From: an uncultured bacterium
GTDB lineage: Bacteria > Bacillota_I > Bacilli_A > RF39 > UBA660
NCBI GenBank assembly: GCA_947169285.1
Contig: CAMVPB010000003.1
Coordinates: 7,867-71,866, forward strand
Direction: 5' to 3'
Length of the DNA stretch: 64,000 nucleotides
Part shown: piece by piece, positions 1 to 60,709 of the stretch
How positions within the stretch are numbered: position 1 is the first letter of the stretch
Layout: each line of letters starts with the position of its first letter
Notes under the pieces: model-generated
What the model saw: the letters and a program-made list of their open reading frames with translations, nothing else
The model's database searches: none
Told to the model about the DNA's origin: nothing
Program-made: the position numbers and the translations under genes

Positions 1-683
1 CAACCAGAAGCTTAAAACTTATGAGAAAGTTTTATTTATTTCAAAAAGGGCAAGCAGCGCCTGCCCAATTGACATGGAGTCACTACATAGAACTTTTACC
101 AATTAAAGATAATAATAAAATTAATTATTATATTAATGTTACTATCAATCAAAAAATATCATATAGAGAACTTAGAAGAAGAATCAAATCTAATGAATAT
201 GAAAGATTAAGTGATAAAACTAAAAATAAACTAATTAACAGAGAGAATATATCTATTAAAGATAATTTATTAAATCCAATTATTATTAATTCCAATAATA
301 AAGATATTGATATATTTAATGAAAAGGCATTAAAAGAATTAATATTAAATGATATTGAAAGTTTTATGAAGCAACTAGGTAATGGATATTCTTTTATAAG
401 TAGTGAATATTCTATTCTACTTGGTGATAGATATAATTATATAGATTTATTATTATTTAATATTAACTTTAATTGTTATGTTGTTATTGAATTAAAAGTT
501 ACTGAACTCAAAAAAGAACATATTGGTCAAATACAAACCTATATGAATTATATTGATTCTAATGTTAAATCTATTTATCAAGGTAATACTATTGGAATTA
601 TTATTTGTAAAAAAGATAATAAATTTGTTATGGAGTATTGTTCTGATGAAAGAGTTTTAAGAACTACTTATCAGTTAAATTAA
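1..683 (+). CDS. YhcG-like PD-(D/E)XK nuclease (DUF1016 family), 5' partial at the window edge; paralog copy A
   Basis: The frame is open from position 3 and the first Met is at 21. The C-terminal 200 aa are nearly identical to the ORFs at 54590..55486 and 59362..60261. A D...ELK PD-(D/E)XK-like core is present (VVIELKVTELKKEHIGQIQTY). Confidence 0.6.
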   Translation, partial: TRSLKLMRKFYLFQKGQAAPAQLTWSHYIELLPIKDNNKINYYINVTINQKISYRELRRRIKSNEYERLSDKTKNKLINRENISIKDNLLNPIIINSNNKDIDIFNEKALKELILNDIESFMKQLGNGYSFISSEYSILLGDRYNYIDLLLFNINFNCYVVIELKVTELKKEHIGQIQTYMNYIDSNVKSIYQGNTIGIIICKKDNKFVMEYCSDERVLRTTYQLN

Positions 684-5887: not shown

Positions 5888-7447
5888 CTATTTAGCAATT
5901 TCTTCTGCTCTTGTCTCGCGAATAACAACAACTTTAATTGTACCAGGGTATTGCATTTCCGCTTCAACTTTATCCTTGATATCTCTAGCAATTTTGTAAC
6001 TTTTAGCATCATCAATCTCTTCTGGTTTAACAATAACTCTAAGTTCCCTACCAGCTTGCATTGCAAATGTTTTTTCAACGCCATCAATTTCATTTCCAAT
6101 TGCTTCTAATTGTTCTAACCTCTTAACATAGTTTTCTAAACTATCATTTCTAGCTCCAGGACGTGAAGCAGATAAAGCATCAGCTATTTGAACTAATACT
6201 GATATAACCGATGTTGGTTTTTTATCACCATGATGTGACTCAATTGCATTTATAACAACTGGATCTTCATTTGCTTTTTTAGCAATATCAGCACCTATTT
6301 CAACATGACTTCCTTCAATTTCAAAGTCAATAGCTTTACCTATATCATGAAGTAAACCAGCTCTTTTAGCAAGAGCAACATTTTCTCCAAGTTCTGAAGC
6401 AAGCAACCCTGCTAAATGAGCAACTTCTTTTGAATGACTTAAAGCATTTTGACCATAACTTGTTCTAAAATTCAATTTACCTATCAATTCAACAAGATAA
6501 GGATCTACTTTAGTTAAATTTAATTCAAATAAAGCTTCTTCTCCTTTTTCTTTGATCTTTGTTTTAAAATCTTCACAAATCTTATCATAAAGTTCTTCTA
6601 TTCTAGCCGGATGTATTCTTCCATCTTTAATTAAAGCTTCAAGAGTAGTTTTAGCAATTTCTCTTCTAAGTGGATCAAAGCTTGATAAAACAATTACTTC
6701 AGGAGTATCATCAATTATAAGATCTACTCCTGTTATAGCTTCAATAGTTCTTATGTTACGACCTTCTCTACCAATAATTCTTCCTTTCATTTCATCATTA
6801 GGAAGGGTTACAGTAGATACAGTTTGTTCACTTGTAACATCATTTGAATATCTTTGCATACAATCAACTAAGTATTCTTTAGATTTTCTATCAGCTTCTA
6901 ATTTAGCCTCATCTTCTCTTTGTTTTAAATATTCAGCTATTTCTTTAGACATTTCATTTTCAACTTTTTCCATTACTAAAGTTTTAGCTTTTTCTTTTGA
7001 AAAACCAGATATTTTTTCTAACAATTCTATCTGTTCTTTCAATAAATTCTCCATTTTTGCATCTTTTTCTTGTAATTCTTTTTGTTTTGCCAATAAATTT
7101 TTGTCTTTTTGATCTAATGATCTTTCACGTTCATTAATAAGTTCATCTCTTTTATCAAGGCTTCTTTCACGATTATCAATTCTATCATTTAACTCATTAA
7201 GTTCTTTTTTCTTTTCTTTAATTTCTTCTTCTGTCTGTTTCTTTAACTTATATGATTCTTCTTTTAATTCAAGAACATTATCTCTTTTAATTCTTTCCGC
7301 TTCTTTTCTAGCATTCTCTATTAATTTATTGGCTTCATTTTTAGCAGCAGCATTTTTTAATTTGCCAACCAAAAAAGTTACTCCTGCACCTATTATAATT
7401 CCAATTAAGCCAAGCAAAATGGAGAAAGTAACATTTTCCATATTCAT
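5888..7447 (-). CDS. rny: Ribonuclease Y (N-terminal TM, coiled coil, KH and HD domains)
   Basis: 519 aa with an N-terminal TM helix, a KH motif ([12 protein letters not shown]) and an HD domain ([17 protein letters not shown] ... LLHDIGK). Confidence 0.9.
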
Positions 7448-9874: not shown

Positions 9875-10220
9875 AATAATTTTAATAAGCCATATTTTGT
9901 ACCATAAAGGTGACAAACATTTATCTAAGGTTTCCCTTCCTTTACTCAGTTTAATTCCCTCGTAAAAGTTCCCCTACCAAATTTGGGTTTCTCGCTCGCG
10001 GGGTTTACGTCGTTCCACTTCCTTATCCCTAAGGATATCGTCACTATAGCACTTTTATATCTACTTTAATCAGGTCTTGATTATTTCGAAGCCGTAAAGC
10101 AAAGCTTTCCTAGAGTTATTTTTTTCTCTAGCACGAACACTACTGCCATTTCAGGACAGTGCGAGTATGGACTTTCCTCTACATAAAATCTTATGCAGCG
10201 TTTGTCTAAAAATTATTATT
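9875..10220 (-). ncRNA. rnpB: RNase P RNA, Bacillus type (type B)
   Basis: The minus strand reads ...CGCUGCAUAAGAUUUUAUGUAGAGGAAAGUCCAUACUCGCAC ... GUAGUGUUCGUGCUAGAG ... GUGGAACGACGUAAACCCCGCGAGCGAGAAACCCAAAUUUGGUAGGGGAAC ... GGUACAAAAUAUGGCUUAU. This tracks B. subtilis rnpB closely. P1 can form between AAUAAUUUUUA and UAAAAUUAUU. It is adjacent to gpsB as in B. subtilis, and the region has locally raised GC. Confidence 0.9.
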
Positions 10221-21659: not shown

Positions 21660-21800
21660 TATCCTCCTTTTTTGATTAATAAAGAAAAAGCTTTCCCAAG
21701 GGAAAGCTTATAAACGTTCTATAAGATTTCACCTCGGTAGGATTTATGTTTGTACCTACTGTCTTTGGGGACTTCTTTTCTTCATCGCTTTAGATTATAT
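21660..21800 (-). promoter_or_regulatory. Putative L10 (rplJ) leader autoregulatory RNA region
   Basis: Structured 5' UTR upstream of rplJ. It is locally GC-richer, with stems such as gctttcccttgggaaagc. The position matches the Firmicute L10 leader, but the structure was not verified. Confidence 0.35.
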
Positions 21801-54257: not shown

Positions 54258-54379
54258 AGTATCACCTTTTATATACTATGAATTTTAATTATTTAGAGTA
54301 AATATATTTATATTATTTTTTTATAAAATTTTATAAATTTATTATTGACAAAATGACCTCTTTAGTATAGTATATAGAC

Positions 54380-54482
54380 TTACCAATTCACTTTTAGGCG
54401 AATTGGTGCTAGTATCACACTAGCCAACCCCTTTTTATTCTTTTTTCCGGATTGCTCTCAGGGGGAGCAATCCTTTTTTATT
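54380..54482 (+). ncRNA. Candidate small RNA or leader (promoter, three hairpins, intrinsic terminator) upstream of YhcG copy B
   Basis: TTGACA (54345-50), 17 nt, TAGTAT. Hairpins accaattc/gaattggt and gctagt/actagc. Terminator ggattgctc-tcaggg-ggagcaatcc followed by a T6 run. Confidence 0.35.
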
Positions 54483-54589
54483 TGGTATTTTTTCCAACAA
54501 AAAAAGTGTTTTAAATAAAAATTTACGATAATATATGTAGAGGATACTTTGAGTATCTTTTTTTATATTTTAGAAAGGAGGTAAAAATA

Positions 54590-55486
54590 ATGAACTATTA
54601 TGATGAAATAAAAAATATTTTAATTTCTAATGAAGCATACAAACAAGTTAAAGATTATTATAAAAATAGAAATGATTTAATGTCTTATTATAATGTTGGT
54701 AAATTATTATTGAAAGCTGGCAATAAATATGGTGAAAGTATTATTAAAAACTATTCTATTAAATTAACCAAAGAACTTGGTAAAGGTTATTCTTGGAGAA
54801 ATCTTTATAATATGAAAACATTTTACTCATTATTTAAAAATGAAGAAATTTTGCAGACATTGTCTGCAAAATTAGCATGGAGTCATTTTTGTGAACTATT
54901 TAAATTTGAAGATGTTAATAAAATTAATTATTATATTAGTATATCTATTAATCAAAATCTATCAGTTAGAGAACTTAGAAGAAGAATTAAATCAAAAGAA
55001 TATGAAAGATTAAGCGATGAAACTAAAAATAAACTAATTAACAAAGAGAATATATCTATTAAAGATAATTTATTAAATCCAATTATTATTAATTCCAATA
55101 ATAAAGATATTAATATATTTAATGAAAAAATATTAAAAGAATTAATTCTTAATGATATTTCTAGTTTTATGGAACAACTTGGTAATGGTTATTCTTTTAT
55201 AAAAGATGAATACCCTATTTTCTTAGGTGATAGATATAATTATATAGATTTATTATTATTTAATATTAATTTTAATTGTTATGTTTGTATTGAATTAAAA
55301 GTTACTGAACTTAAAAAAGATCATATTGGTCAAATACAAACATATATAAATTATATCGATTCTAATGTTAAATCTATATATCAAGATAAAATTATAGGTA
55401 TTATTATATGTAAAAAAGATAATAAATTTGTTATGGAATATTGTTCTGATGAAAGAATACTTAGAACTACTTACCAGTTAAATTAA
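54590..55486 (+). CDS. YhcG-like PD-(D/E)XK nuclease (DUF1016), paralog copy B
   Basis: 298 aa; the C-terminal half is nearly identical to copies A and C (RELRRRIKSKEYERLSDETKNKLINKENISIKDNLLNPIIINSNNKDI...). Confidence 0.65.
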   Translation: MNYYDEIKNILISNEAYKQVKDYYKNRNDLMSYYNVGKLLLKAGNKYGESIIKNYSIKLTKELGKGYSWRNLYNMKTFYSLFKNEEILQTLSAKLAWSHFCELFKFEDVNKINYYISISINQNLSVRELRRRIKSKEYERLSDETKNKLINKENISIKDNLLNPIIINSNNKDINIFNEKILKELILNDISSFMEQLGNGYSFIKDEYPIFLGDRYNYIDLLLFNINFNCYVCIELKVTELKKDHIGQIQTYINYIDSNVKSIYQDKIIGIIICKKDNKFVMEYCSDERILRTTYQLN

Positions 55487-55495
55487 AAAGTTAAG

Positions 55496-58400
55496 TTATT
55501 CACTTAACCTTTTATAATATTCATATCTTTCTTTAGCAGAATCTATATTTAATGTATATAATTCTTCATAAGCTTTTGGATTAGTTTTCTTTAAATTTTT
55601 ATATCTAAGTTCTTTTTCAAATATAGTTTCATATTTAGAAAAATCTGGTTCTTTTGAATCAATTGATAAAGCACTTTCTATTGGATTATATCTCATTAAA
55701 ATATTATATCCACTTTCTGCTAAGAGTTTTTCTTCATCAAGTGAATTTCTAAGTCCACCTGTTATACCATGAGAAATACATGGACTATAAGCTATTATCA
55801 AAGATGGACCTTTATGTTCATATGCTTCTTTAAATGCTTTTAAAGTTTGATTCATATTAGCACCCATAGAAATTGATGCAACATAAACATTTGGAATACT
55901 CATTGCAATCCTAAATAAATCTTTTTTATTTGTCTTTTTACCATTTGAAGAAAACTCTGCTACAGAAGCATATTTGGTAGACTTAGATGTTTGTCCTCCC
56001 GTATTTGAATAAACTTCAGTGTCAAGTACAAGTATATTTACATTTTCGTTTGAATGAAGTATATGATCAAGGCCACCATAACCTATATCATAAGCCCAAC
56101 CATCTCCTCCAACAATCCATACTGTTCTTGATGGTATATATGGAAGTAATCCTTTTAATTCATTAGGAATTTCATGGTTTTCTAATTCTTTTTTTACATT
56201 AGAAGTTATTTCAAAATCTTCCATATTGTCTATCCAAGTTTTATAGATATCTTTTACATCTTTATTTACAATGTCTTTTGTTTCATACATTAAATCTTTT
56301 ATCATTTCTCTTTTAGTTTTATAAGACATATAAAGTCCATAACCAAATTCGGCATTATCTTCAAATAGAGAACTTGCCCATGGTACCTTATAAGGAAGAC
56401 TTGGCAAAGAGCCTCCATATATTGAAGAGCATCCAGTTGCATTAGAAATAACTATTTCATCTTTATAAAGACTTGTAAGTATATTTAAGTATCCACTTTC
56501 ACCACATCCAGCACAAGCTCCACTAAATTCAAAACCAGTTTCTTTAAATCCTAAACCTTTAACAGTATATTTATTGAATTTAGTATCATTTTTAACATTT
56601 TTAAATAAATCTATACTTCTTAAACTTAACTTTTCATCAAAGTCACCAAACTCTAATGCTTTATTACCTCCTTTGCCAGGACAAGCACTTATACATAGTC
56701 CACAAGAAGTACAGTCACTTTCAGAAACACTTAAATAAAATCTTTTACCATTTTCTTCTCCAATACTTAATATTGTTTCATCTTCAGGTATATTATTAAA
56801 TTTCATATCATCTTCAGTAAGTGAAAATGGTCTTATAACTGCATGAGGACATATAAATGAACATTGATTACATTCTATACAATTTTCTTTTATCCATTTA
56901 GGTACTTTAGAAGATATTTTTCTTTTATCTGATGAAGATGTTCCACCATCAAACATACCATCTTTATGTTCTAAGAAATCAGATACTTTTATATTATTAG
57001 ATTTATTATTAATTTTACTATACAAATCATCATTTATTTCTTCATTTGAAGAATCAATTGCTAACATTTCTGTATCTACTTCATGACAATATTCAAATGC
57101 TGAATCTAATGATTCAATGTTATTCTTTATAACACTTTCTTCTTTATCTTTATATGCATTTAATATTATCTCTTTAAAGTTTTCATTATCTTCATTAGAG
57201 CATCCTAATATTTTAAGAATATATGTAGACATTACATTATTTATTTTTCCACCTAAATGATACTTTTCATCTATACTATTAGTATCACATACAAAGAATT
57301 TAATTTTTTTATCTTTAATAATTTTCTTAATATTACTTGGTATATAATCATTTAATTCATCAATACTTTTACTTGTTGATAATAAGAATATACCGCCTTT
57401 TTTAATACCTTCAAGCACATTAAACTTTTTTAAATAATTTTCTTTAGTAACTACTACTAGATTAGTAGATTCAGGATAATAGGGAGCATTTATAGGACTA
57501 TTATCTATCCTTAAATGACTAATAGTCACTCCACCACTCTTTTTAGAATCATATTCAAAATATCCTTGTACAAAAGTATCATCTTTTTTACCAAGTAATT
57601 TTAGTATATTCTTAGATGCACTTACCATTCCATCTGATCCAAAACCATATATTTTTATTTCTTTAAAATCTTTTGATAATTTAAATTCACATTTGGGTAA
57701 GCTTTTTAAAGTTACATCATCATTTATCCCAACAGAAAATTTATCCATGGGATTATTTTTATTCATATTATCATATACACTTTTTATATCAGATGGGTCA
57801 GTATTTTTAGAAGATAATCCATATATTCCATTATATATTTCAATATGTTCATCTTTTAATACTTCACATACATCTAAGTATAAAGGTGTACCTGTTCCAG
57901 AAAATTCTTTAGTTCTGTCCATTACTGTTATCTTAGTTACAGTTTTAGGTAATACTTTAAAGAAATATTCTTTAGAAAATGGTCTATATAAATGAACGTT
58001 AATAAGTCCAACTTCTTCTCCATTTTTATTCATTTCATCAACAACTAATTTAATAGTATCAGTTACACTTCCCATCGCAACTATTATGTGCTTAGCATGT
58101 TCATCTCCATAATAATTAAATGGTTTATAATTAGTATCAGCAATCAAATTAATATGTTCCATATATTTATTAACTATATCAGGAATAGCTTCATAGTATT
58201 TATTTCTAGCTTCAGTATTTTCAAAATAAACATCTTCTGTTTCACTAACACCTTTAGTAATACACTTACCTATATTTAAACTTTTATCTTTAAATTCTTT
58301 TACCTTATCCATATCTATTAAAGGTAAAATGTTCTCTTCTTTTAATATATTAATTTTATTAATTTCATGAGAAGTTCTAAATCCATCAAAAAAATGTAAA

Positions 58401-58959: not shown

Positions 58960-59235
58960 TTAATTTCCTAATCCTTCCCATACTATGTTATTAGAATCAT
59001 TGTATCCATCAGTCCATCCCCATAGACCAGTCCCATATAATTCAAAATCACTTGACGATAATTTTTCTTTTATTGTTACTGAAGTTAATAAATTATTAGA
59101 AAATGCATAATTGCCTATTGATTCGATGCTATTTGGAATTGTTACTGAACTCAAGTAATTATACATAAACGCATTTTCATCTATTGTTCTAACACTATTT
59201 GGAATTACTACTGAAGTTAATGATTTTTCTTCCAT
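58960..59235 (-). pseudogene. Leucine-rich repeat (BspA-type LRR_5) protein fragment; likely a gene remnant driven by a duplicated promoter and leader
   Basis: 91 aa with IPNSV..I...AF LRR_5 repeats. It has no signal peptide and is too short for a functional LRR surface protein. The upstream 70 bp and the Met-Glu start are identical to the TasA-like gene at 46157. Confidence 0.45.
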
Positions 59236-59361
59236 GATAAAAACTCCTTATCTTATAAGTAAATATTACTATAAATTTGGGGTTTTATAAATGATTATTA
59301 TTTTTTTATTCAAAAAAAGTGTTTTGGAAAAAAACTAACGATAATATATATAGGAGGATTT

Positions 59362-60261
59362 ATGAACTACTATAATGAAATAAAAAATATATTAATATCT
59401 AATGAAGCTTATAAACAAGTTAAAGATTATTATAAAAATAGAAATGATTTAATGTCTTATTATAATGTTGGTAAATTGTTAATAGAGGCTCAGGGTGGCG
59501 AAGCAAGAGCTAAATATGGAGATAACTTAATTAAAGAGTATTCTATTAAATTAACAAAAGAATTGGGTAAAGGATATACCGTTAGTGAACTCAAAAGAAT
59601 GAGACAATTCTATGTGTTTCAAAAAGGTGCGACAGTGTCGCACCAATTAACATGGAGCCATTACATAGAGTTATTAAAGTTTAATGACGTTAATAAGATT
59701 AATTATTATATTAATATATCTTCTAATCAAAATCTATCAGTTAGAGAACTTAGAAGAAGAATTAAATCAAATGAATATGAAAGATTAAGTGATAAAACTA
59801 AAAATAAACTAATTAACAGAGAGAATATATCTATTAAAGATAATTTATTAAATCCAATTATTATTAATTCCAATAATAAAGATATTGATGTTTTTAATGA
59901 AAAGGCATTAAAAGAATTTATATTAAATGATATTTCTAATTTTATGAAACAACTTGGTAATGGTTACTCTTTTATAGATAGTGAATACCCTATTCTTTTA
60001 GGTGACAGATATAATTATATTGATTTATTACTTTTTAATTATATTTATAATTGTTTTATAGTTATTGAATTAAAAATAACTGAGCTTAAAAAAGAACATA
60101 TAGGTCAAATAGAGACTTATATGCACTTTATTGATTCTAATGTTAAATCTATATATCAAGATAATACTATTGGTATTATTATTTGTAAAAAAGATAATAA
60201 ATTTGTTATGGAATATTGCTCTGATGAAAGAATACTTAGAACTACTTATGAGTTAAATTAA
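59362..60261 (+). CDS. YhcG-like PD-(D/E)XK nuclease (DUF1016), paralog copy C
   Basis: 299 aa; shares long verbatim stretches with copy A (RELRRRIKSNEYERLSDKTKNKLINRENISIKDNLLNPIIINSNNKDID). Confidence 0.65.
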   Translation: MNYYNEIKNILISNEAYKQVKDYYKNRNDLMSYYNVGKLLIEAQGGEARAKYGDNLIKEYSIKLTKELGKGYTVSELKRMRQFYVFQKGATVSHQLTWSHYIELLKFNDVNKINYYINISSNQNLSVRELRRRIKSNEYERLSDKTKNKLINRENISIKDNLLNPIIINSNNKDIDVFNEKALKEFILNDISNFMKQLGNGYSFIDSEYPILLGDRYNYIDLLLFNYIYNCFIVIELKITELKKEHIGQIETYMHFIDSNVKSIYQDNTIGIIICKKDNKFVMEYCSDERILRTTYELN

Positions 60262-60271
60262 AAAGTTATCA

Positions 60272-60709
60272 TTATTTATGATAACTTTCATTATTTAATA
60301 TTTTAAATGATCTATATATTTGTTCTAAAAGCATCCCTCTAAATACTCCATGAGGAAATGTCATGTCTGAAAAAGATAATCTCAAATTACATTTATTTTT
60401 TACTTCTTCTGTAACTCCATTAGAAGCTCCTATTATAAATGTAATTGTTCCATAGCTATTTGAAAAAGTATTATCTATTAATTTTGAAAATTCTATTGAA
60501 TCATATTTTTTACCTTTAATATCTAATAATATATTAAAATCTTTTTCATTTAATTTATTTAATATTTCTTTACTTTCTATCTCTATATTACTATCTTTTA
60601 ATTCAATTATTTCTATTTTATGATAAGCGTTTATTCTGGTTTTATAATCATCTATAAAATCATTTAAATATTTTTCTTTTATTTTACCAACACATATTAT
60701 TTTAATCAT
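60272..60709 (-). CDS. rlmH: 23S rRNA (pseudouridine1915-N3)-methyltransferase RlmH (SPOUT)
   Basis: 145 aa; SPOUT/YbeA layout; conserved C-terminal R...E..YR motif. Confidence 0.8.
   Translation of the reverse strand: MIKIICVGKIKEKYLNDFIDDYKTRINAYHKIEIIELKDSNIEIESKEILNKLNEKDFNILLDIKGKKYDSIEFSKLIDNTFSNSYGTITFIIGASNGVTEEVKNKCNLRLSFSDMTFPHGVFRGMLLEQIYRSFKILNNESYHK

What the first reader, a model, noticed from the sequence alone, without database searches (positions are those of the whole stretch)
54493..55486. Three near-identical YhcG-like PD-(D/E)XK nuclease paralogs within 64 kb, each with a conserved upstream leader
The ORFs at 1-683 (partial), 54590-55486 and 59362-60261 share long verbatim protein stretches and high DNA identity, plus about 60 bp of upstream sequence (aaaaagtgtttt...acgataatatat...aggagga). 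They sit in unrelated contexts: before tex, between a rhodanese gene and PFOR, and between an LRR fragment and rlmH. The N-terminal thirds differ (GNKYGESIIKNYSI versus AQGGEARAKYGDNLIKEYSI), while the C-terminal nuclease core is almost identical. That points to gene conversion or recent duplication. The protein fits the DUF1016/YhcG pattern; that family is poorly characterised.
Basis: partly seen in the sequence, partly recalled or inferred. Interest (0 to 1): 0.6.

Follow-up and report, generated by a model that had tools for sequence, protein, structure and literature searches.

The report
Nuclease gene family hiding a palindrome
The three genes are real but only about 78% identical copies of a widespread, uncharacterised nuclease (YhcG/DUF1016), and each carries inside its coding sequence a DNA palindrome that is kept as a structure, not a sequence, in relatives from E. 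coli to Deinococcus, which points to an undescribed built-in control or recognition site.

Summary
The three ORFs exist and are YhcG-family PD-(D/E)XK nucleases (DUF1016_N + YhcG_C, catalytic E/D/ExK intact). "Near-identical" is overstated: they are 77-80% identical in protein and 83-87% in DNA. They are mosaics, which fits recombination among paralogues. Only two leaders lie in the window; they share about 51 nt, a promoter-like stretch that is not conserved in other lineages. Related low-GC gut "Bacilli" MAGs carry many copies, often 2-4 in head-to-tail arrays plus fragments.

Each copy has an in-frame, odd-centred palindrome just 5' of the L-x-W-S-H codons (48-66, 54847-54873, 59626-59644). 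Across 90 distinct relatives, 93.6% of cells pair (61.6% when shuffled), with 217 double-sided changes and almost no G-U. Rare codons are used to keep it. It encodes a surface loop. The same axis holds in plasmid, prophage and chromosomal homologues from at least six phyla. E. coli K-12 has three modules and O157 has one.

I found no description of it. Its function is not shown. My best inference is a DNA-level hairpin or palindrome that serves as a cis site for the structure-specific nuclease itself. RNA-level, recombination-hotspot and self-perpetuating readings remain open.

The parts
1..683 (+). Copy 1 of the YhcG-family gene, 5'-truncated by the window edge (reading frame from base 3; stop at 681-683)
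   Evidence: catalytic YIDLLLF at 438-458 and IELK at 486-497
48..66 (.). Coding palindrome of copy 1, degenerate: GGGCAAGCA G CGCCTGCCC (7 of 9 pairs, two A.C mismatches)
   Evidence: weak fold, z = -1.05
54486..54536 (+). Upstream stretch shared with copy 3 (…AAAAAAAGTGTTTT…ACGATAATATAT), promoter-like
   Evidence: 51 nt at 82% identity to 59299-59349; partly shared only with L026 among related loci
54537..54589 (+). Copy-2-specific leader segment: about 41-nt insertion with hairpin GATACTttgAGTATC plus a T-run, then the Shine-Dalgarno AGGAGG
   Evidence: a similar arrangement in L026
54590..55486 (+). Copy 2, complete YhcG-family ORF (298 aa): DUF1016_N + YhcG_C
   Evidence: catalytic YIDLLLF at 55241-55261 and IELK at 55289-55300
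54847..54873 (.). Coding palindrome of copy 2: AATTTTGCAGACA T TGTCTGCAAAATT (13-bp arms), encoding E-I-L-Q-T-L-S-A-K-L
   Evidence: DNA fold -11.3 kcal/mol, z = -4.9
59299..59349 (+). Upstream stretch shared with copy 2 (promoter-like), directly followed by the Shine-Dalgarno and ATG
59362..60261 (+). Copy 3, complete YhcG-family ORF (299 aa)
   Evidence: AF2 model with pLDDT 80.6; C-domain fold resembles NucS/EndoMS, Bax1, MGME1, Cas4, Hjc; catalytic YIDLLLF at 60016-60036 and IELK at 60064-60075
59626..59644 (.). Coding palindrome of copy 3: GGTGCGACA G TGTCGCACC (9-bp arms), encoding G-A-T-V-S-H-(Q). It lies in the loop between helices 74-87 and 98-104
   Evidence: z = -4.5; the only GC-rich odd palindrome with arms of 8 or more in the 64-kb window

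Best explanation
SHOWN. The three ORFs are diverged, recombining paralogues of a stand-alone YhcG/DUF1016 nuclease. The N-terminal domain is helical and HTH-like. The C-terminal domain is a PD-(D/E)XK domain with a NucS/Hjc-like fold and an intact E-D-ExK motif. The family matches PADLOC candidate defence family PDC-S02. The copies belong to a lineage-specific expansion in low-GC gut 'Bacilli' MAGs, where such genes form head-to-tail arrays and leave fragments.

Also shown: every copy carries an odd-centred palindrome at a fixed codon position, with its centre 18 nt 5' of the Trp codon of the L-x-W-S-H motif. The palindrome is conserved as base-pairing potential, not as sequence, and is kept against codon usage. 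It is found across the whole family in many phyla.

INFERRED. The palindrome is a cis-acting element that works at the DNA level, as a hairpin or cruciform-prone site, or as a twofold-symmetric duplex. Most likely it is the ligand by which the structure-specific, dimeric nuclease recognises its own gene, for example to limit its own expression or to mark or load on its own locus. It sits in a loop-coding segment because that is the one place that always travels with the gene and tolerates amino-acid change. As a side effect this segment is prone to duplication, IS insertion and recombination, which feeds the mosaicism seen between paralogues.
For: Family and fold.

Expansion and arrays: 35 of 79 loci have more than one copy, arrays of up to four, plus fragments.

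Mosaicism.

The palindrome is real and selected:
- 64 of 95 copies have perfect arms of 8 bp or more at the same place.
- 93.6% of cells are paired against 61.6% when shuffled (0 of 500 shuffles reach it). The covariation score is 0.684 against 0.149. There are 217 double-sided changes. Slid controls give 24-45% paired.
- Codon 3 is NCA in 73 of 81 and never NCT, although NCT is about 42% elsewhere in the same genes. Codon 4 is NTG in 74 of 81, although G-ending codons are about 5% elsewhere.

Family-wide: E. coli, 11 of 12 plasmid homologues, Wolbachia phage WO and Singulisphaera carry it. In 64 distinct diverse homologues a single axis gives 72.7% Watson-Crick pairing, against 17-34% for every other axis. 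In 34 of 57 it is the best palindrome in the whole gene.

DNA-level rather than one-strand RNA:
- G.T and A.C mismatches are equally rare, 21 versus 22, and there are very few G-U pairs.
- The innermost pair next to a 1-nt centre is selected.
- It is an isolated helix on either strand.
- No 3' end is listed at the E. coli palindromes in the file that mentions yhcG.

Loop location: AF2 model.

Structure-specific nuclease: the C-domain resembles NucS/EndoMS and Hjc (PMC1189080). An E. coli yhcG deletion is synthetic-lethal with dnaB, dnaN and parE hypomorphs (PMC2672614).

Instability at the site: E. coli K-12 has a 78-nt in-frame insertion, equal to two extra modules, compared with O157, and two IS junctions lie at the base of module 3. 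Orphan modules sit next to YhcG genes.
Against: - No binding, cleavage or expression data exist. The link between protein and palindrome is inference.
- Arms of 8-9 bp are short for cruciform extrusion in vivo.
- In the diverse set the innermost pair is often G.T and loops of 3-5 nt occur. That fits a hairpin in any single-stranded nucleic acid, RNA included.
- No copy of the half-site lies near the promoters, 1 of 48 against 3.1 expected, so a classic operator pair is unlikely.
- A few subfamilies lack the palindrome yet keep the catalytic residues.
- In the low-GC clade the palindrome also scores as an intrinsic terminator on the minus strand.
- The N-domain has no significant structural or sequence match. 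The Spo0J HTH hit has E = 0.033 only.
Confidence: 0.4

Rival explanations
1. RNA-level element. The palindrome acts as a hairpin in the mRNA (slowing ribosomes, stabilising or destabilising the transcript, or serving as a site of self-cleavage by the nuclease). Alternatively it acts in an antisense transcript; in the low-GC clade it would terminate a short antisense RNA that starts about 60-80 nt downstream and could pair with the mRNA.
For: An 8-bp stem with a 3-nt loop is feasible, and variants with 3-5-nt loops keep the stem. Both complete window copies score as minus-strand terminators, GC stem followed by TTTTT. Antisense promoter-like hexamers (TTGATT-17-AATAAT) sit at the same place in both copies. 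Watson-Crick-only covariation is what a hairpin needed on both transcripts would give. An orphan module just 3' of a YhcG gene looks like a bidirectional terminator (L030).
Against: There is no excess of G.U on either strand, 21 versus 22. The T-run is absent in Clostridium, Proteobacteria, Deinococcus and others. Promoter-like hits are no more frequent than in shuffles. There is no larger conserved RNA structure and no Rfam match. No RNA end is listed at the E. coli palindromes. Selection on the innermost A-T pair next to a 1-nt centre is not explained by hairpin energetics.
Confidence: 0.2
2. Recombination device. The palindrome is kept because it provokes breaks or template switching that shuffle the variable N-terminal block among tandem and dispersed paralogues and partial cassettes. 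This would diversify a defence nuclease, as in cassette-based antigenic variation.
For: Paralogues are mosaics. Adjacent-window identity correlation is lowest (0.08-0.11) 40-70 nt 3' of the palindrome and low over the N-terminal half. Partial copies cover mainly residues 43-141 and include the palindrome. In E. coli, module number varies and IS junctions lie at the palindrome.
Against: There is no sharp breakpoint at the palindrome. The fragments carry stop codons and look like decay products. Most family members are single-copy genes, for example in type I R-M operons, with no donor cassettes, yet they keep the palindrome. No recombinase is linked in the MAG loci.
Confidence: 0.15
3. Non-adaptive, self-perpetuating palindrome. 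An ancient hairpin module of about 36 nt lodged in a tolerant loop. It persists because mutations in one arm are copied to the other (template switching or repair within the hairpin) and because the module duplicates locally. It has no role for the host gene.
For: The module multiplies in tandem: three copies in E. coli K-12, two in Legionella, and clusters at 35-55-nt spacing next to genes in L067 and L062. Perfect palindromes persist in stop-codon-ridden fragments and in stretches with no detectable coding homology. Arms change fast between close relatives with identical flanking helices. Coding palindromes that behave as selfish elements are known in Nematomorpha mitochondria (PMC6649704, listed).
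Against: The fixed position and axis across many phyla, together with heavy use of rare codons, argue for purifying selection on the structure. The modules do not spread elsewhere: all 87 in 672 kb are in or beside YhcG genes, and none lie elsewhere in the window. The orphan modules were found by searching for perfect palindromes, so their 'persistence' is biased by how they were ascertained.
Confidence: 0.15
4. Sequence-specific operator. The N-terminal HTH-like domain binds the duplex palindrome as a dimer, each paralogue reading its own site, in the way ParB binds a parS site that lies inside spo0J.
For: The palindrome is odd-centred and symmetric up to the dyad. There is a weak profile match of residues 54-136 to the Spo0J HTH region (E = 0.033). 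Two broad classes of helix 74-87 go with two classes of palindrome (TxSxLKRMRQ with G-A-T-x-S-H; STRxLKLMRK with G-Q-x-x-x-A).
Against: Within a class the arms change freely (GGGCAGACA, GGGCAGGCA, GGGCAACCA) with no change in the helices. The strict need for arm complementarity at variable positions is not explained by duplex reading. No matching half-site lies near promoters. The Spo0J match is not significant.
Confidence: 0.05
5. The copies are a mobile element or a homing-type selfish nuclease gene that carries its own promoter and inserts into unrelated contexts.
For: Copies sit in unrelated housekeeping contexts, with homology starting about 75 nt 5' of the ATG and ending just after the stop codon. 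The family is common on plasmids and prophage-like contigs.
Against: No terminal inverted repeats or target-site duplications are seen at the homology borders. Tandem arrays with 12-25-bp spacers point to unequal crossing-over. Leaders differ between lineages. The family is rare in bona fide phage genomes, 12 of 50,697 records. No transposase or integrase lies nearby in the window or in the MAG loci.
Confidence: 0.05

Closest known systems
E. coli YhcG / Pfam PF17761 (DUF1016_N) + PF06250 (YhcG_C); PADLOC candidate defence family PDC-S02
   Same: Same two-domain architecture, same catalytic motif, and strong HMM matches. The E. coli gene carries the same coding palindrome at the same place.
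   Different: The window proteins are shorter (298-299 versus 349-375 aa) and only about 26% identical to E. coli YhcG. They are stand-alone and multi-copy or tandem in this lineage. Elsewhere the gene is typically single-copy, in hsdM-yhcG-hsdS operons or beside integrases.
NucS/EndoMS, archaeal Hjc/Hje resolvases, Cas4, MGME1 (PD-(D/E)XK fold)
   Same: The C-terminal domain of the AF2 model matches them best (Foldseek). Kosinski et al. 2005 reached the same result by profile methods.
   Different: The matches are weak (E of about 3e-3, TM 0.25-0.32) and cover the nuclease core only. The N-terminal domain has no counterpart.
parS sites inside the parB/spo0J gene (ParB-parS), from my own knowledge of the B. 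subtilis system
   Same: A palindromic cis site that lies within the coding sequence of the gene for a DNA-binding protein and travels with it.
   Different: parS is conserved in sequence and read as duplex DNA. Here the arms vary freely with compensation. ParB relatedness is not established (E = 0.033).
Integron attC sites and REP elements with their RAYT transposases (from my own knowledge)
   Same: Sequence-variable, structure-conserved palindromes recognised as folded DNA. They are tied to a dedicated nucleic-acid enzyme encoded nearby, and modules occur in local clusters.
   Different: attC and REP elements are non-coding, longer or imperfect, and spread through the genome. Here the palindrome is in frame and single per gene, and it is found only in or beside YhcG genes. 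The enzyme is a PD-(D/E)XK nuclease, not a tyrosine recombinase or HUH enzyme.
Intrinsic (Rho-independent) terminators
   Same: In the low-GC clade the element is a GC-rich 8-9-bp stem followed by TTTTT on the minus strand, and the terminator scan calls it.
   Different: It lies inside an ORF and on the antisense strand. The T-run is missing in most of the family.
Coding palindromes of Nematomorpha mitochondrial genes (PMC6649704, seen)
   Same: Perfect inverted repeats embedded in protein-coding sequence, with both arms translated.
   Different: Those are long (up to 284 bp), numerous, scattered over many genes and lineage-restricted. This one is short, at one fixed site of one gene family, and conserved across phyla.

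Membership tests
YhcG / DUF1016 family (Pfam PF17761 + PF06250) | N-terminal DUF1016_N domain | tested here: met
   E = 2e-29 and 3e-28 for copies 2 and 3, and 3e-13 for the truncated copy 1; all above the gathering score
YhcG / DUF1016 family (Pfam PF17761 + PF06250) | C-terminal YhcG_C PD-(D/E)XK domain | tested here: met
   E = 3e-30, 7e-31 and 1e-32
YhcG / DUF1016 family (Pfam PF17761 + PF06250) | Catalytic motif E…D…(D/E)-x-K (Kosinski et al. 2005: E-D-E(I/L/V)K) | tested here: met
   E208, D221, E236-L-K238 and Q249 in copy 3. The same columns are conserved in 27 close and 13 distant homologues
YhcG / DUF1016 family (Pfam PF17761 + PF06250) | Restriction-endonuclease-like alpha/beta fold of the C-domain | tested here: met
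   AF2 model with pLDDT 80.6. Best PDB matches are EndoMS/NucS, Bax1, MGME1, Cas4, XisH and Hjc, at weak E-values
YhcG / DUF1016 family (Pfam PF17761 + PF06250) | Nuclease activity | not testable with these tools
   No biochemical data were found for any member
Anti-phage defence system (PADLOC PDC-S02 candidate) | Match to the PDC-S02 profiles | tested here: met
   E = 3.7e-65 for copy 3 and 2e-131 for E. coli YhcG
Anti-phage defence system (PADLOC PDC-S02 candidate) | Location in a defence island or linkage to R-M genes | tested here: not met
   The window copies lie next to tex, PFOR, rlmH and rhodanese-like genes. Arrays in MAG loci lie among envelope and housekeeping genes. Distant members do sit in type I R-M operons
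Anti-phage defence system (PADLOC PDC-S02 candidate) | Demonstrated protection against phage | not testable with these tools
   The papers that mention PDC-S02 only list it as a candidate
Mobile element / homing endonuclease gene | Terminal repeats or target-site duplication at the borders of the duplicated unit | tested here: not met
   Nothing is seen at the homology borders of copies 2 and 3
Known RNA families (Rfam 15) | Match of the palindrome or the leader to a curated covariance model | tested here: not met
   No match at gathering score in the window. At the permissive threshold there were only chance-level hits, for example mir-7131 at E = 0.57
Intrinsic terminator (antisense strand) | GC-rich stem-loop directly followed by a U-run | tested here: inconclusive
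   Met on the minus strand for copies 2 and 3 and for most low-GC relatives. Not met in most other family members. No transcript data
ParB/Spo0J-type HTH with cognate palindromic site | Significant sequence or fold similarity of the N-domain to a ParB HTH | tested here: not met
   The only hit is Spo0J at E = 0.033 in a profile search of PDB sequences. Foldseek found no ParB hit

The most novel reading that the evidence does not exclude
The YhcG nuclease and the palindrome inside its own gene form a self-recognising pair. The dimeric, junction-resolvase-like enzyme binds or cuts the hairpin or cruciform extruded from its own coding sequence. This sets its own dosage. In lineages with tandem and partial copies, it also starts break-induced gene conversion that reshuffles the variable block. 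That would be a built-in diversification engine for a defence nuclease, comparable in logic to mating-type switching or pilin cassette variation.
Probability: 0.12. Interest if true: 0.9.

Novelty: new variant of a known kind. Interest (0 to 1): 0.68.

Why it matters
YhcG/DUF1016 is a large family. This search found 9,680 clusters at 50% identity, 481 plasmid records, and the gene in about 73% of complete E. coli genomes. It sits in type I R-M operons, on plasmids and in prophage-like contigs, and it is listed as a candidate defence gene, yet no function is known.

A palindrome that is strongly selected at the nucleotide level, conserved in position across phyla, and dictates the amino acids of a protein loop is a rare kind of overlapping code. 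It gives a direct experimental handle: break the palindrome, restore it, and look at what changes.

It also explains why the 'variable' block differs so sharply between paralogues. It warns that protein alignments and selection tests on this region are confounded by a DNA constraint. Natural E. coli alleles with one or three modules offer ready-made test material.

Tried and rejected
- Rfam searches at gathering and permissive thresholds found nothing for the palindrome or the leader.
- No tRNA or tmRNA lies nearby.
- NCBIfam has no model for these proteins.
- Exact-sequence look-ups of the source contig failed for P0003, P0007 and copy 2, so the leader of copy 1 and a possible fourth paralogue (P0007) could not be examined.
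- I looked for a larger RNA around the hairpin on both strands and found none.
- I looked for antisense small ORFs and found none of note.
- I looked for a promoter-proximal copy of the half-site and found none.
- I tested whether loss of the palindrome goes with loss of catalytic residues; it does not.
- I tested for G.U bias as a sign of the transcribed strand and found none.
- I considered hairpin-specific hypervariation in the L027 repeat units and rejected it: the flanks vary too, and the units look like decaying duplicates.
- I considered a universal antisense terminator and rejected it as a family-wide role because the T-run is lineage-specific.
- Literature searches linking yhcG/DUF1016 to palindromes, hairpins or inverted repeats returned nothing relevant. 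The library holds open-access papers only, so a prior description cannot be excluded.
Full report
**1. The observation**

The window has 26% G+C. It carries a class B RNase P RNA and an L10 leader, which fits a low-GC Bacillota genome.

ORFs lie at 1..683 (cut by the window edge), 54590..55486 and 59362..60261, all on the + strand. All three match Pfam DUF1016_N and YhcG_C far above the curated cut-offs.

The copies are not near-identical. tblastn gives 77.6% and 78.4% identity, and blastn gives 83.5% and 87.5%.

Identity is patchy:
- Residues 1-40 of copies 2 and 3 are almost the same.
- Residues of about 41-107 are very different (43-54% DNA identity).
- Alignment columns 581-700 are 95-100% identical in all pairs.
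- In columns 821-940 copy 2 groups with copy 1 (92-97%) and not with copy 3 (78-83%).

Only two leaders can be seen. They share 51 nt at 82% identity, 54486-54536 versus 59299-59349. This looks like a promoter. Copy 2 then has an extra segment of about 41 nt with a small hairpin and a T-run.

Among 77 related genes with free upstream sequence, only L026 resembles this leader. Other lineages have other promoters. I saw no terminal repeats or target duplications at the borders of homology.

**2. What the genes are**

The proteins have the complete E…D…ExK motif (E208, D221, E236-L-K238 in copy 3).

An AlphaFold model built on 27 homologues (pLDDT 80.6) has a helical N-terminal half and an alpha/beta C-terminal domain. 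The best PDB matches of the C-domain are EndoMS/NucS, Bax1, MGME1, Cas4, XisH and Hjc, all at weak E-values. This agrees with Kosinski et al. 2005 (PMC1189080). The N-domain has no significant match; a profile hit to the Spo0J HTH has E = 0.033 only.

PADLOC files the family as candidate defence family PDC-S02. I found no experimental test of it.

Other facts about the family:
- It is large: 9,680 clusters at 50% identity reach E ≤ 0.001, and 481 plasmid records carry a homologue.
- It is rare in bona fide phage genomes, 12 of 50,697 records.
- Distant members sit between hsdM and hsdS or hsdR of type I R-M operons, or directly after an integrase gene. This matches Milman et al. 2023 (PMC9881135).
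- In E. coli, deletion of yhcG is synthetic-lethal with hypomorphic dnaB, dnaN and parE (PMC2672614).

**3. A lineage-specific expansion**

A scan of one genome per species found more than 522 related stretches. The best 79 loci are all gut or rumen MAGs labelled Bacilli, Tenericutes, Mollicutes or Erysipelotrichaceae, at 57-70% identity.

In 35 of these loci there is more than one copy. Head-to-tail arrays of two to four full genes, 12-25 bp apart, are common (L055, L021, L041, L069, L018, L060). Several loci add truncated pieces that cover mainly residues 43-141.

In L027 these pieces form a 216-nt tandem repeat with stop codons, so they are decaying duplicates. Neighbours of the arrays are envelope and housekeeping genes, not R-M genes or integrases. 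Forty of 117 gene starts follow another YhcG gene within 150 nt.

The three dispersed copies in the window are therefore part of a general habit of this clade.

**4.

In the middle of the variable block each copy has a palindrome at the same alignment position but with a different sequence:
- Copy 2: AATTTTGCAGACA T TGTCTGCAAAATT (54847-54873)
- Copy 3: GGTGCGACA G TGTCGCACC (59626-59644)
- Copy 1: GGGCAAGCA G CGCCTGCCC, degenerate (48-66)

. Copy 3's palindrome is the only GC-rich odd palindrome with arms of 8 bp or more in the 64-kb window.

Of 95 related copies, 64 have perfect arms of 8 bp or more at this exact place. The arm sequences are many (GGTGCGACA, GGGCAGACA, GGGCAGGCA, GGGCAACCA, GTGTCGACA, GGTCCGACA, TGGTCGCCA, GTCACACA and others).

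On 90 distinct 45-nt segments:
- The 9-1-9 helix is paired in 93.6% of cells, against 61.6% after shuffling (0 of 500 shuffles reach it).
- Sliding the partner by 1-3 columns gives 24-45% paired.
- Eight of nine pairs change on both sides, with 217 such cells.
- The covariation score is 0.684 against 0.149.

The palindrome explains the peptide 'types' seen in the protein alignment (G-A-T-[V/M/L]-S-H, G-Q-T-L-S-A, G-Q-A-[V/L]-P-A, G-Q-P-L-V-A and others). The DNA symmetry dictates the amino acids, and the free central base gives the V/M/L choice.

Codon usage shows the direction of the constraint. The third codon of the palindrome is NCA in 73 of 81 genes and never NCT, although NCT makes up about 42% of such codons elsewhere in the same genes. 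The fourth codon is GTG, CTG, TTG or ATG in 74 of 81, although G-ending Val and Leu codons are about 5% elsewhere.

In the model the encoded residues 89-95 lie in a ten-residue loop between helices 74-87 and 98-104. That is a place that tolerates change.

**5. It is a property of the whole family**

E. coli K-12 yhcG has three consecutive modules in the homologous region:
- CCAGACA A TGTCTGG
- GGAATTCcGCAGACaccGTCTGCaGAATTCC
- AAAGATTTGGCAGACgctGTCTGCCAAATCTTT, with 15-bp arms

Homologues from Clostridium, Iodobacter, Legionella (two modules), Serratia, Klebsiella, Sphaerotilus, Paraburkholderia, Pseudomonas, Leptolyngbya, Deinococcus, Rhodococcus, Singulisphaera and Wolbachia phage WO all carry it.

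In 64 distinct diverse sequences anchored on the Trp codon, one axis, 18 nt 5' of that codon, gives 72.7% Watson-Crick pairing over 13 positions. Every other axis gives 17-34%. Positions 2-9 from the centre pair in 66-84% with three or four pair types each. Positions 10-13 are AATT on both sides, and the right-hand AATT comes from the conserved Gln-Leu codons CAATTG.

In 34 of 57 prophage-contig homologues it is the best palindrome of the whole gene.

In GC-rich hosts the palindrome is AT-rich and uses what I take, from general knowledge of GC-rich genomes, to be rare codons. An example from Pseudomonas is AATTCTCGTATCA C TGATACGAGAATT, with ATA, GTA, TCA and CGA. In AT-rich hosts it is GC-rich.

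A few subfamilies lack it or have it shifted about 30 nt by an insertion. They keep the catalytic residues.

**6. At what level does it act?**

The helix stands alone. No further conserved pairing is predicted within about 120 nt on either strand, and no Rfam family matches.

Mismatches are rare and show no strand bias: G.T 21, A.C 22, other 28, over the low-GC and diverse sets. G-U pairs are almost absent. A hairpin that works in one RNA strand should tolerate G.U on that strand.

In the low-GC clade even the pair next to the single central base is selected, and it could not form in a hairpin. These points favour a constraint on DNA symmetry, or on both strands at once.

On the other side:
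- Variants with 3-5 unpaired central bases keep a 7-8-bp stem. This fits a folded single strand better than a duplex site read by a dimer.
- The arms change freely among close relatives whose flanking helices are identical. This argues against sequence-specific reading.
- No copy of the half-site lies near the promoters, 1 of 48 against 3.1 expected.
- In the low-GC clade the stem is followed by TTTTT on the minus strand and scores as an antisense terminator in both complete window copies, with promoter-like hexamers at matching positions downstream. Such hexamers are no more frequent than in shuffles, and the T-run is missing in most of the family.
- In E. coli K-12, the one supplementary file of Adams et al. 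2021 that mentions yhcG lists positions at 3367906 (+) and 3368581 (-), and none at the palindromes.

**7. The module is unstable and partly autonomous**

E. coli O157:H7 has a single module (GCCAGACA G TGTCTGGC, then …LPWSTY). The K-12 type has a 78-nt in-frame insertion that consists of two further, diverged modules. Of 5,426 complete genomes, 2,858 cover at least 80% of the K-12 segment, and about 1,100 are shorter or truncated.

Two independent IS-associated truncations have their junctions at the left and right base of module 3.

In 672 kb of related loci plus the window there are 87 GC-rich odd palindromes with a CA-N-TG centre and arms of 8 bp or more. Of these, 77 lie in YhcG-homologous stretches. 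The other 10 all lie next to YhcG genes, some in clusters 35-55 nt apart, and they keep the short flanks aaaaa…aatt (L067, L062, L012, L027, L030). This search required perfect arms, so it cannot measure decay.

Across 107 full-length relatives, the correlation between identities of adjacent 120-nt windows is low in the N-terminal half (0.08-0.29, lowest 40-70 nt 3' of the palindrome) and higher in the C-terminal half (0.4-0.55). Recombination is frequent there, but there is no sharp break at the palindrome.

**8. Interpretation**

Shown:
- The genes are YhcG-family nucleases with intact active sites.
- They are recombining paralogues in a clade that amplifies them.
- They carry a strongly selected, position-fixed, sequence-variable palindrome that is a hallmark of the family.

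Inferred: the palindrome is a cis element acting at the DNA level. The most economical partner is the protein itself, a dimeric nuclease with a resolvase/NucS-like core that is linked genetically to replication intermediates. It would recognise structure rather than sequence. This would explain three things:
- why every member in every host keeps the element;
- why its sequence is free;
- why it sits inside the gene, in the one segment that tolerates it.

I put this at about 0.4. The rivals are an RNA-level role (0.2), a recombination device (0.15), a self-perpetuating module without function (0.15), a sequence-specific operator (0.05) and a mobile-element reading of the copies (0.05).

**9. 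Novelty and limits**

The gene family is known and the paralogues are new members of it. I found no mention of the coding palindrome in papers that name yhcG or DUF1016. The library holds only open-access texts.

No experiment was possible, the source genome could not be recovered, and the role of the element remains a hypothesis.

Noticed in passing
window 54345-54482 (+): A small structured RNA candidate lies between the rhodanese-like gene and copy 2. It has a promoter-like TTGACA-17-TAGTAT at 54345-54373, then two hairpins and a strong terminator (GGATTGCTCTCaggGGGAGCAATCC plus a T-run). Folded as RNA it gives -34.1 kcal/mol, z = -5.8. No Rfam match.
   Followed up: partly
window 54537-54589: The copy-2 leader has an insertion of about 41 nt absent from copy 3. 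It contains a small hairpin (GATACTttgAGTATC) followed by a T-run just before the ribosome-binding site, which looks like an attenuator. A similar layout occurs upstream of the gene in L026.
   Followed up: partly
window 55487-55515 and 60262-60292: Directly after the stop codons of copies 2 and 3 lie different hairpins that both begin AAAAGTTA… (GTTAAGTtattcACTTAAC; GTTATCATtatttATGATAAC). They probably serve as terminators shared with the convergent PFOR and rlmH genes. Homology between the copies ends here.
   Followed up: no
window 9881-10213 (-) and 21673-21786 (-): Bacterial RNase P class B RNA (253 bits) and the ribosomal protein L10 leader (54.6 bits). With 26% G+C these place the window in a low-GC Bacillota lineage.
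   Followed up: no
L027 5795-6400; also L012, L073, L009, L017: Tandem 216-nt repeat units (82% alike) made of the YhcG segment coding residues of about 66-141. Each has its own palindrome and several stop codons. They look like decaying partial duplications next to intact copies.
   Followed up: partly
L067 3860-3990; L062 3850-3950; L030 1795-1825: Orphan palindrome modules with the usual short flanks (aaaaa…aatt) occur outside detectable YhcG coding sequence. There are two or three in a row just upstream of a YhcG gene (L067, L062). One lies about 60 nt after a gene end and is flanked by an A-run and a T-run like a bidirectional terminator (L030).
   Followed up: partly
L080 (E. coli K-12) 6136-6237; L171 (O157:H7); L172; L173: E. 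coli yhcG alleles differ by a 78-nt in-frame block of two extra palindrome modules, present in K-12 and absent in O157:H7. K-12 also has Arg in place of the conserved Trp. An IS1 junction and another transposase-linked truncation lie at the two bases of module 3.
   Followed up: yes
L018, L019, L025, L029, L046, L048, L051, L068, L069, about 20-60 nt upstream of the first YhcG gene: A conserved promoter region, TTGACAAAATTTTTAA…AAATGTTAGTATAtAAAACATTTAAGGAGG, carries an inverted repeat AAATGTT-N9-AACATTT across the -10 box. It is a possible operator and is unrelated in sequence to the coding palindromes.
   Followed up: no
L041 1862-2872: A second, distant DUF1016-type gene, split into two ORFs (…NNTMLLAYWNVG… and …LELGKGFMFIGIQQRI…), lies 1.1 kb upstream of a three-gene array of the low-GC type. 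Two subfamilies therefore coexist at one locus.
   Followed up: no
window 58960-59235 (-): A short ORF (91 aa) with leucine-rich-repeat-like sequence (…SVVIPNSVRTIDENAF…SVTIPNSIESIGNYAF…) lies directly upstream of copy 3. It appears to be a fragment of a larger surface protein gene.
   Followed up: no
protein hits P0003, P0007, P0033: Three relatives are recorded on one 87,026-bp contig. Over the region the window covers, P0003 equals window copy 1. P0007 (300 aa, 80% identical to copy 3, loop type I-C-P-T-M-S-D) matches none of the three window copies. The source genome may therefore hold a fourth paralogue just outside the window. Contig look-ups failed.
   Followed up: partly
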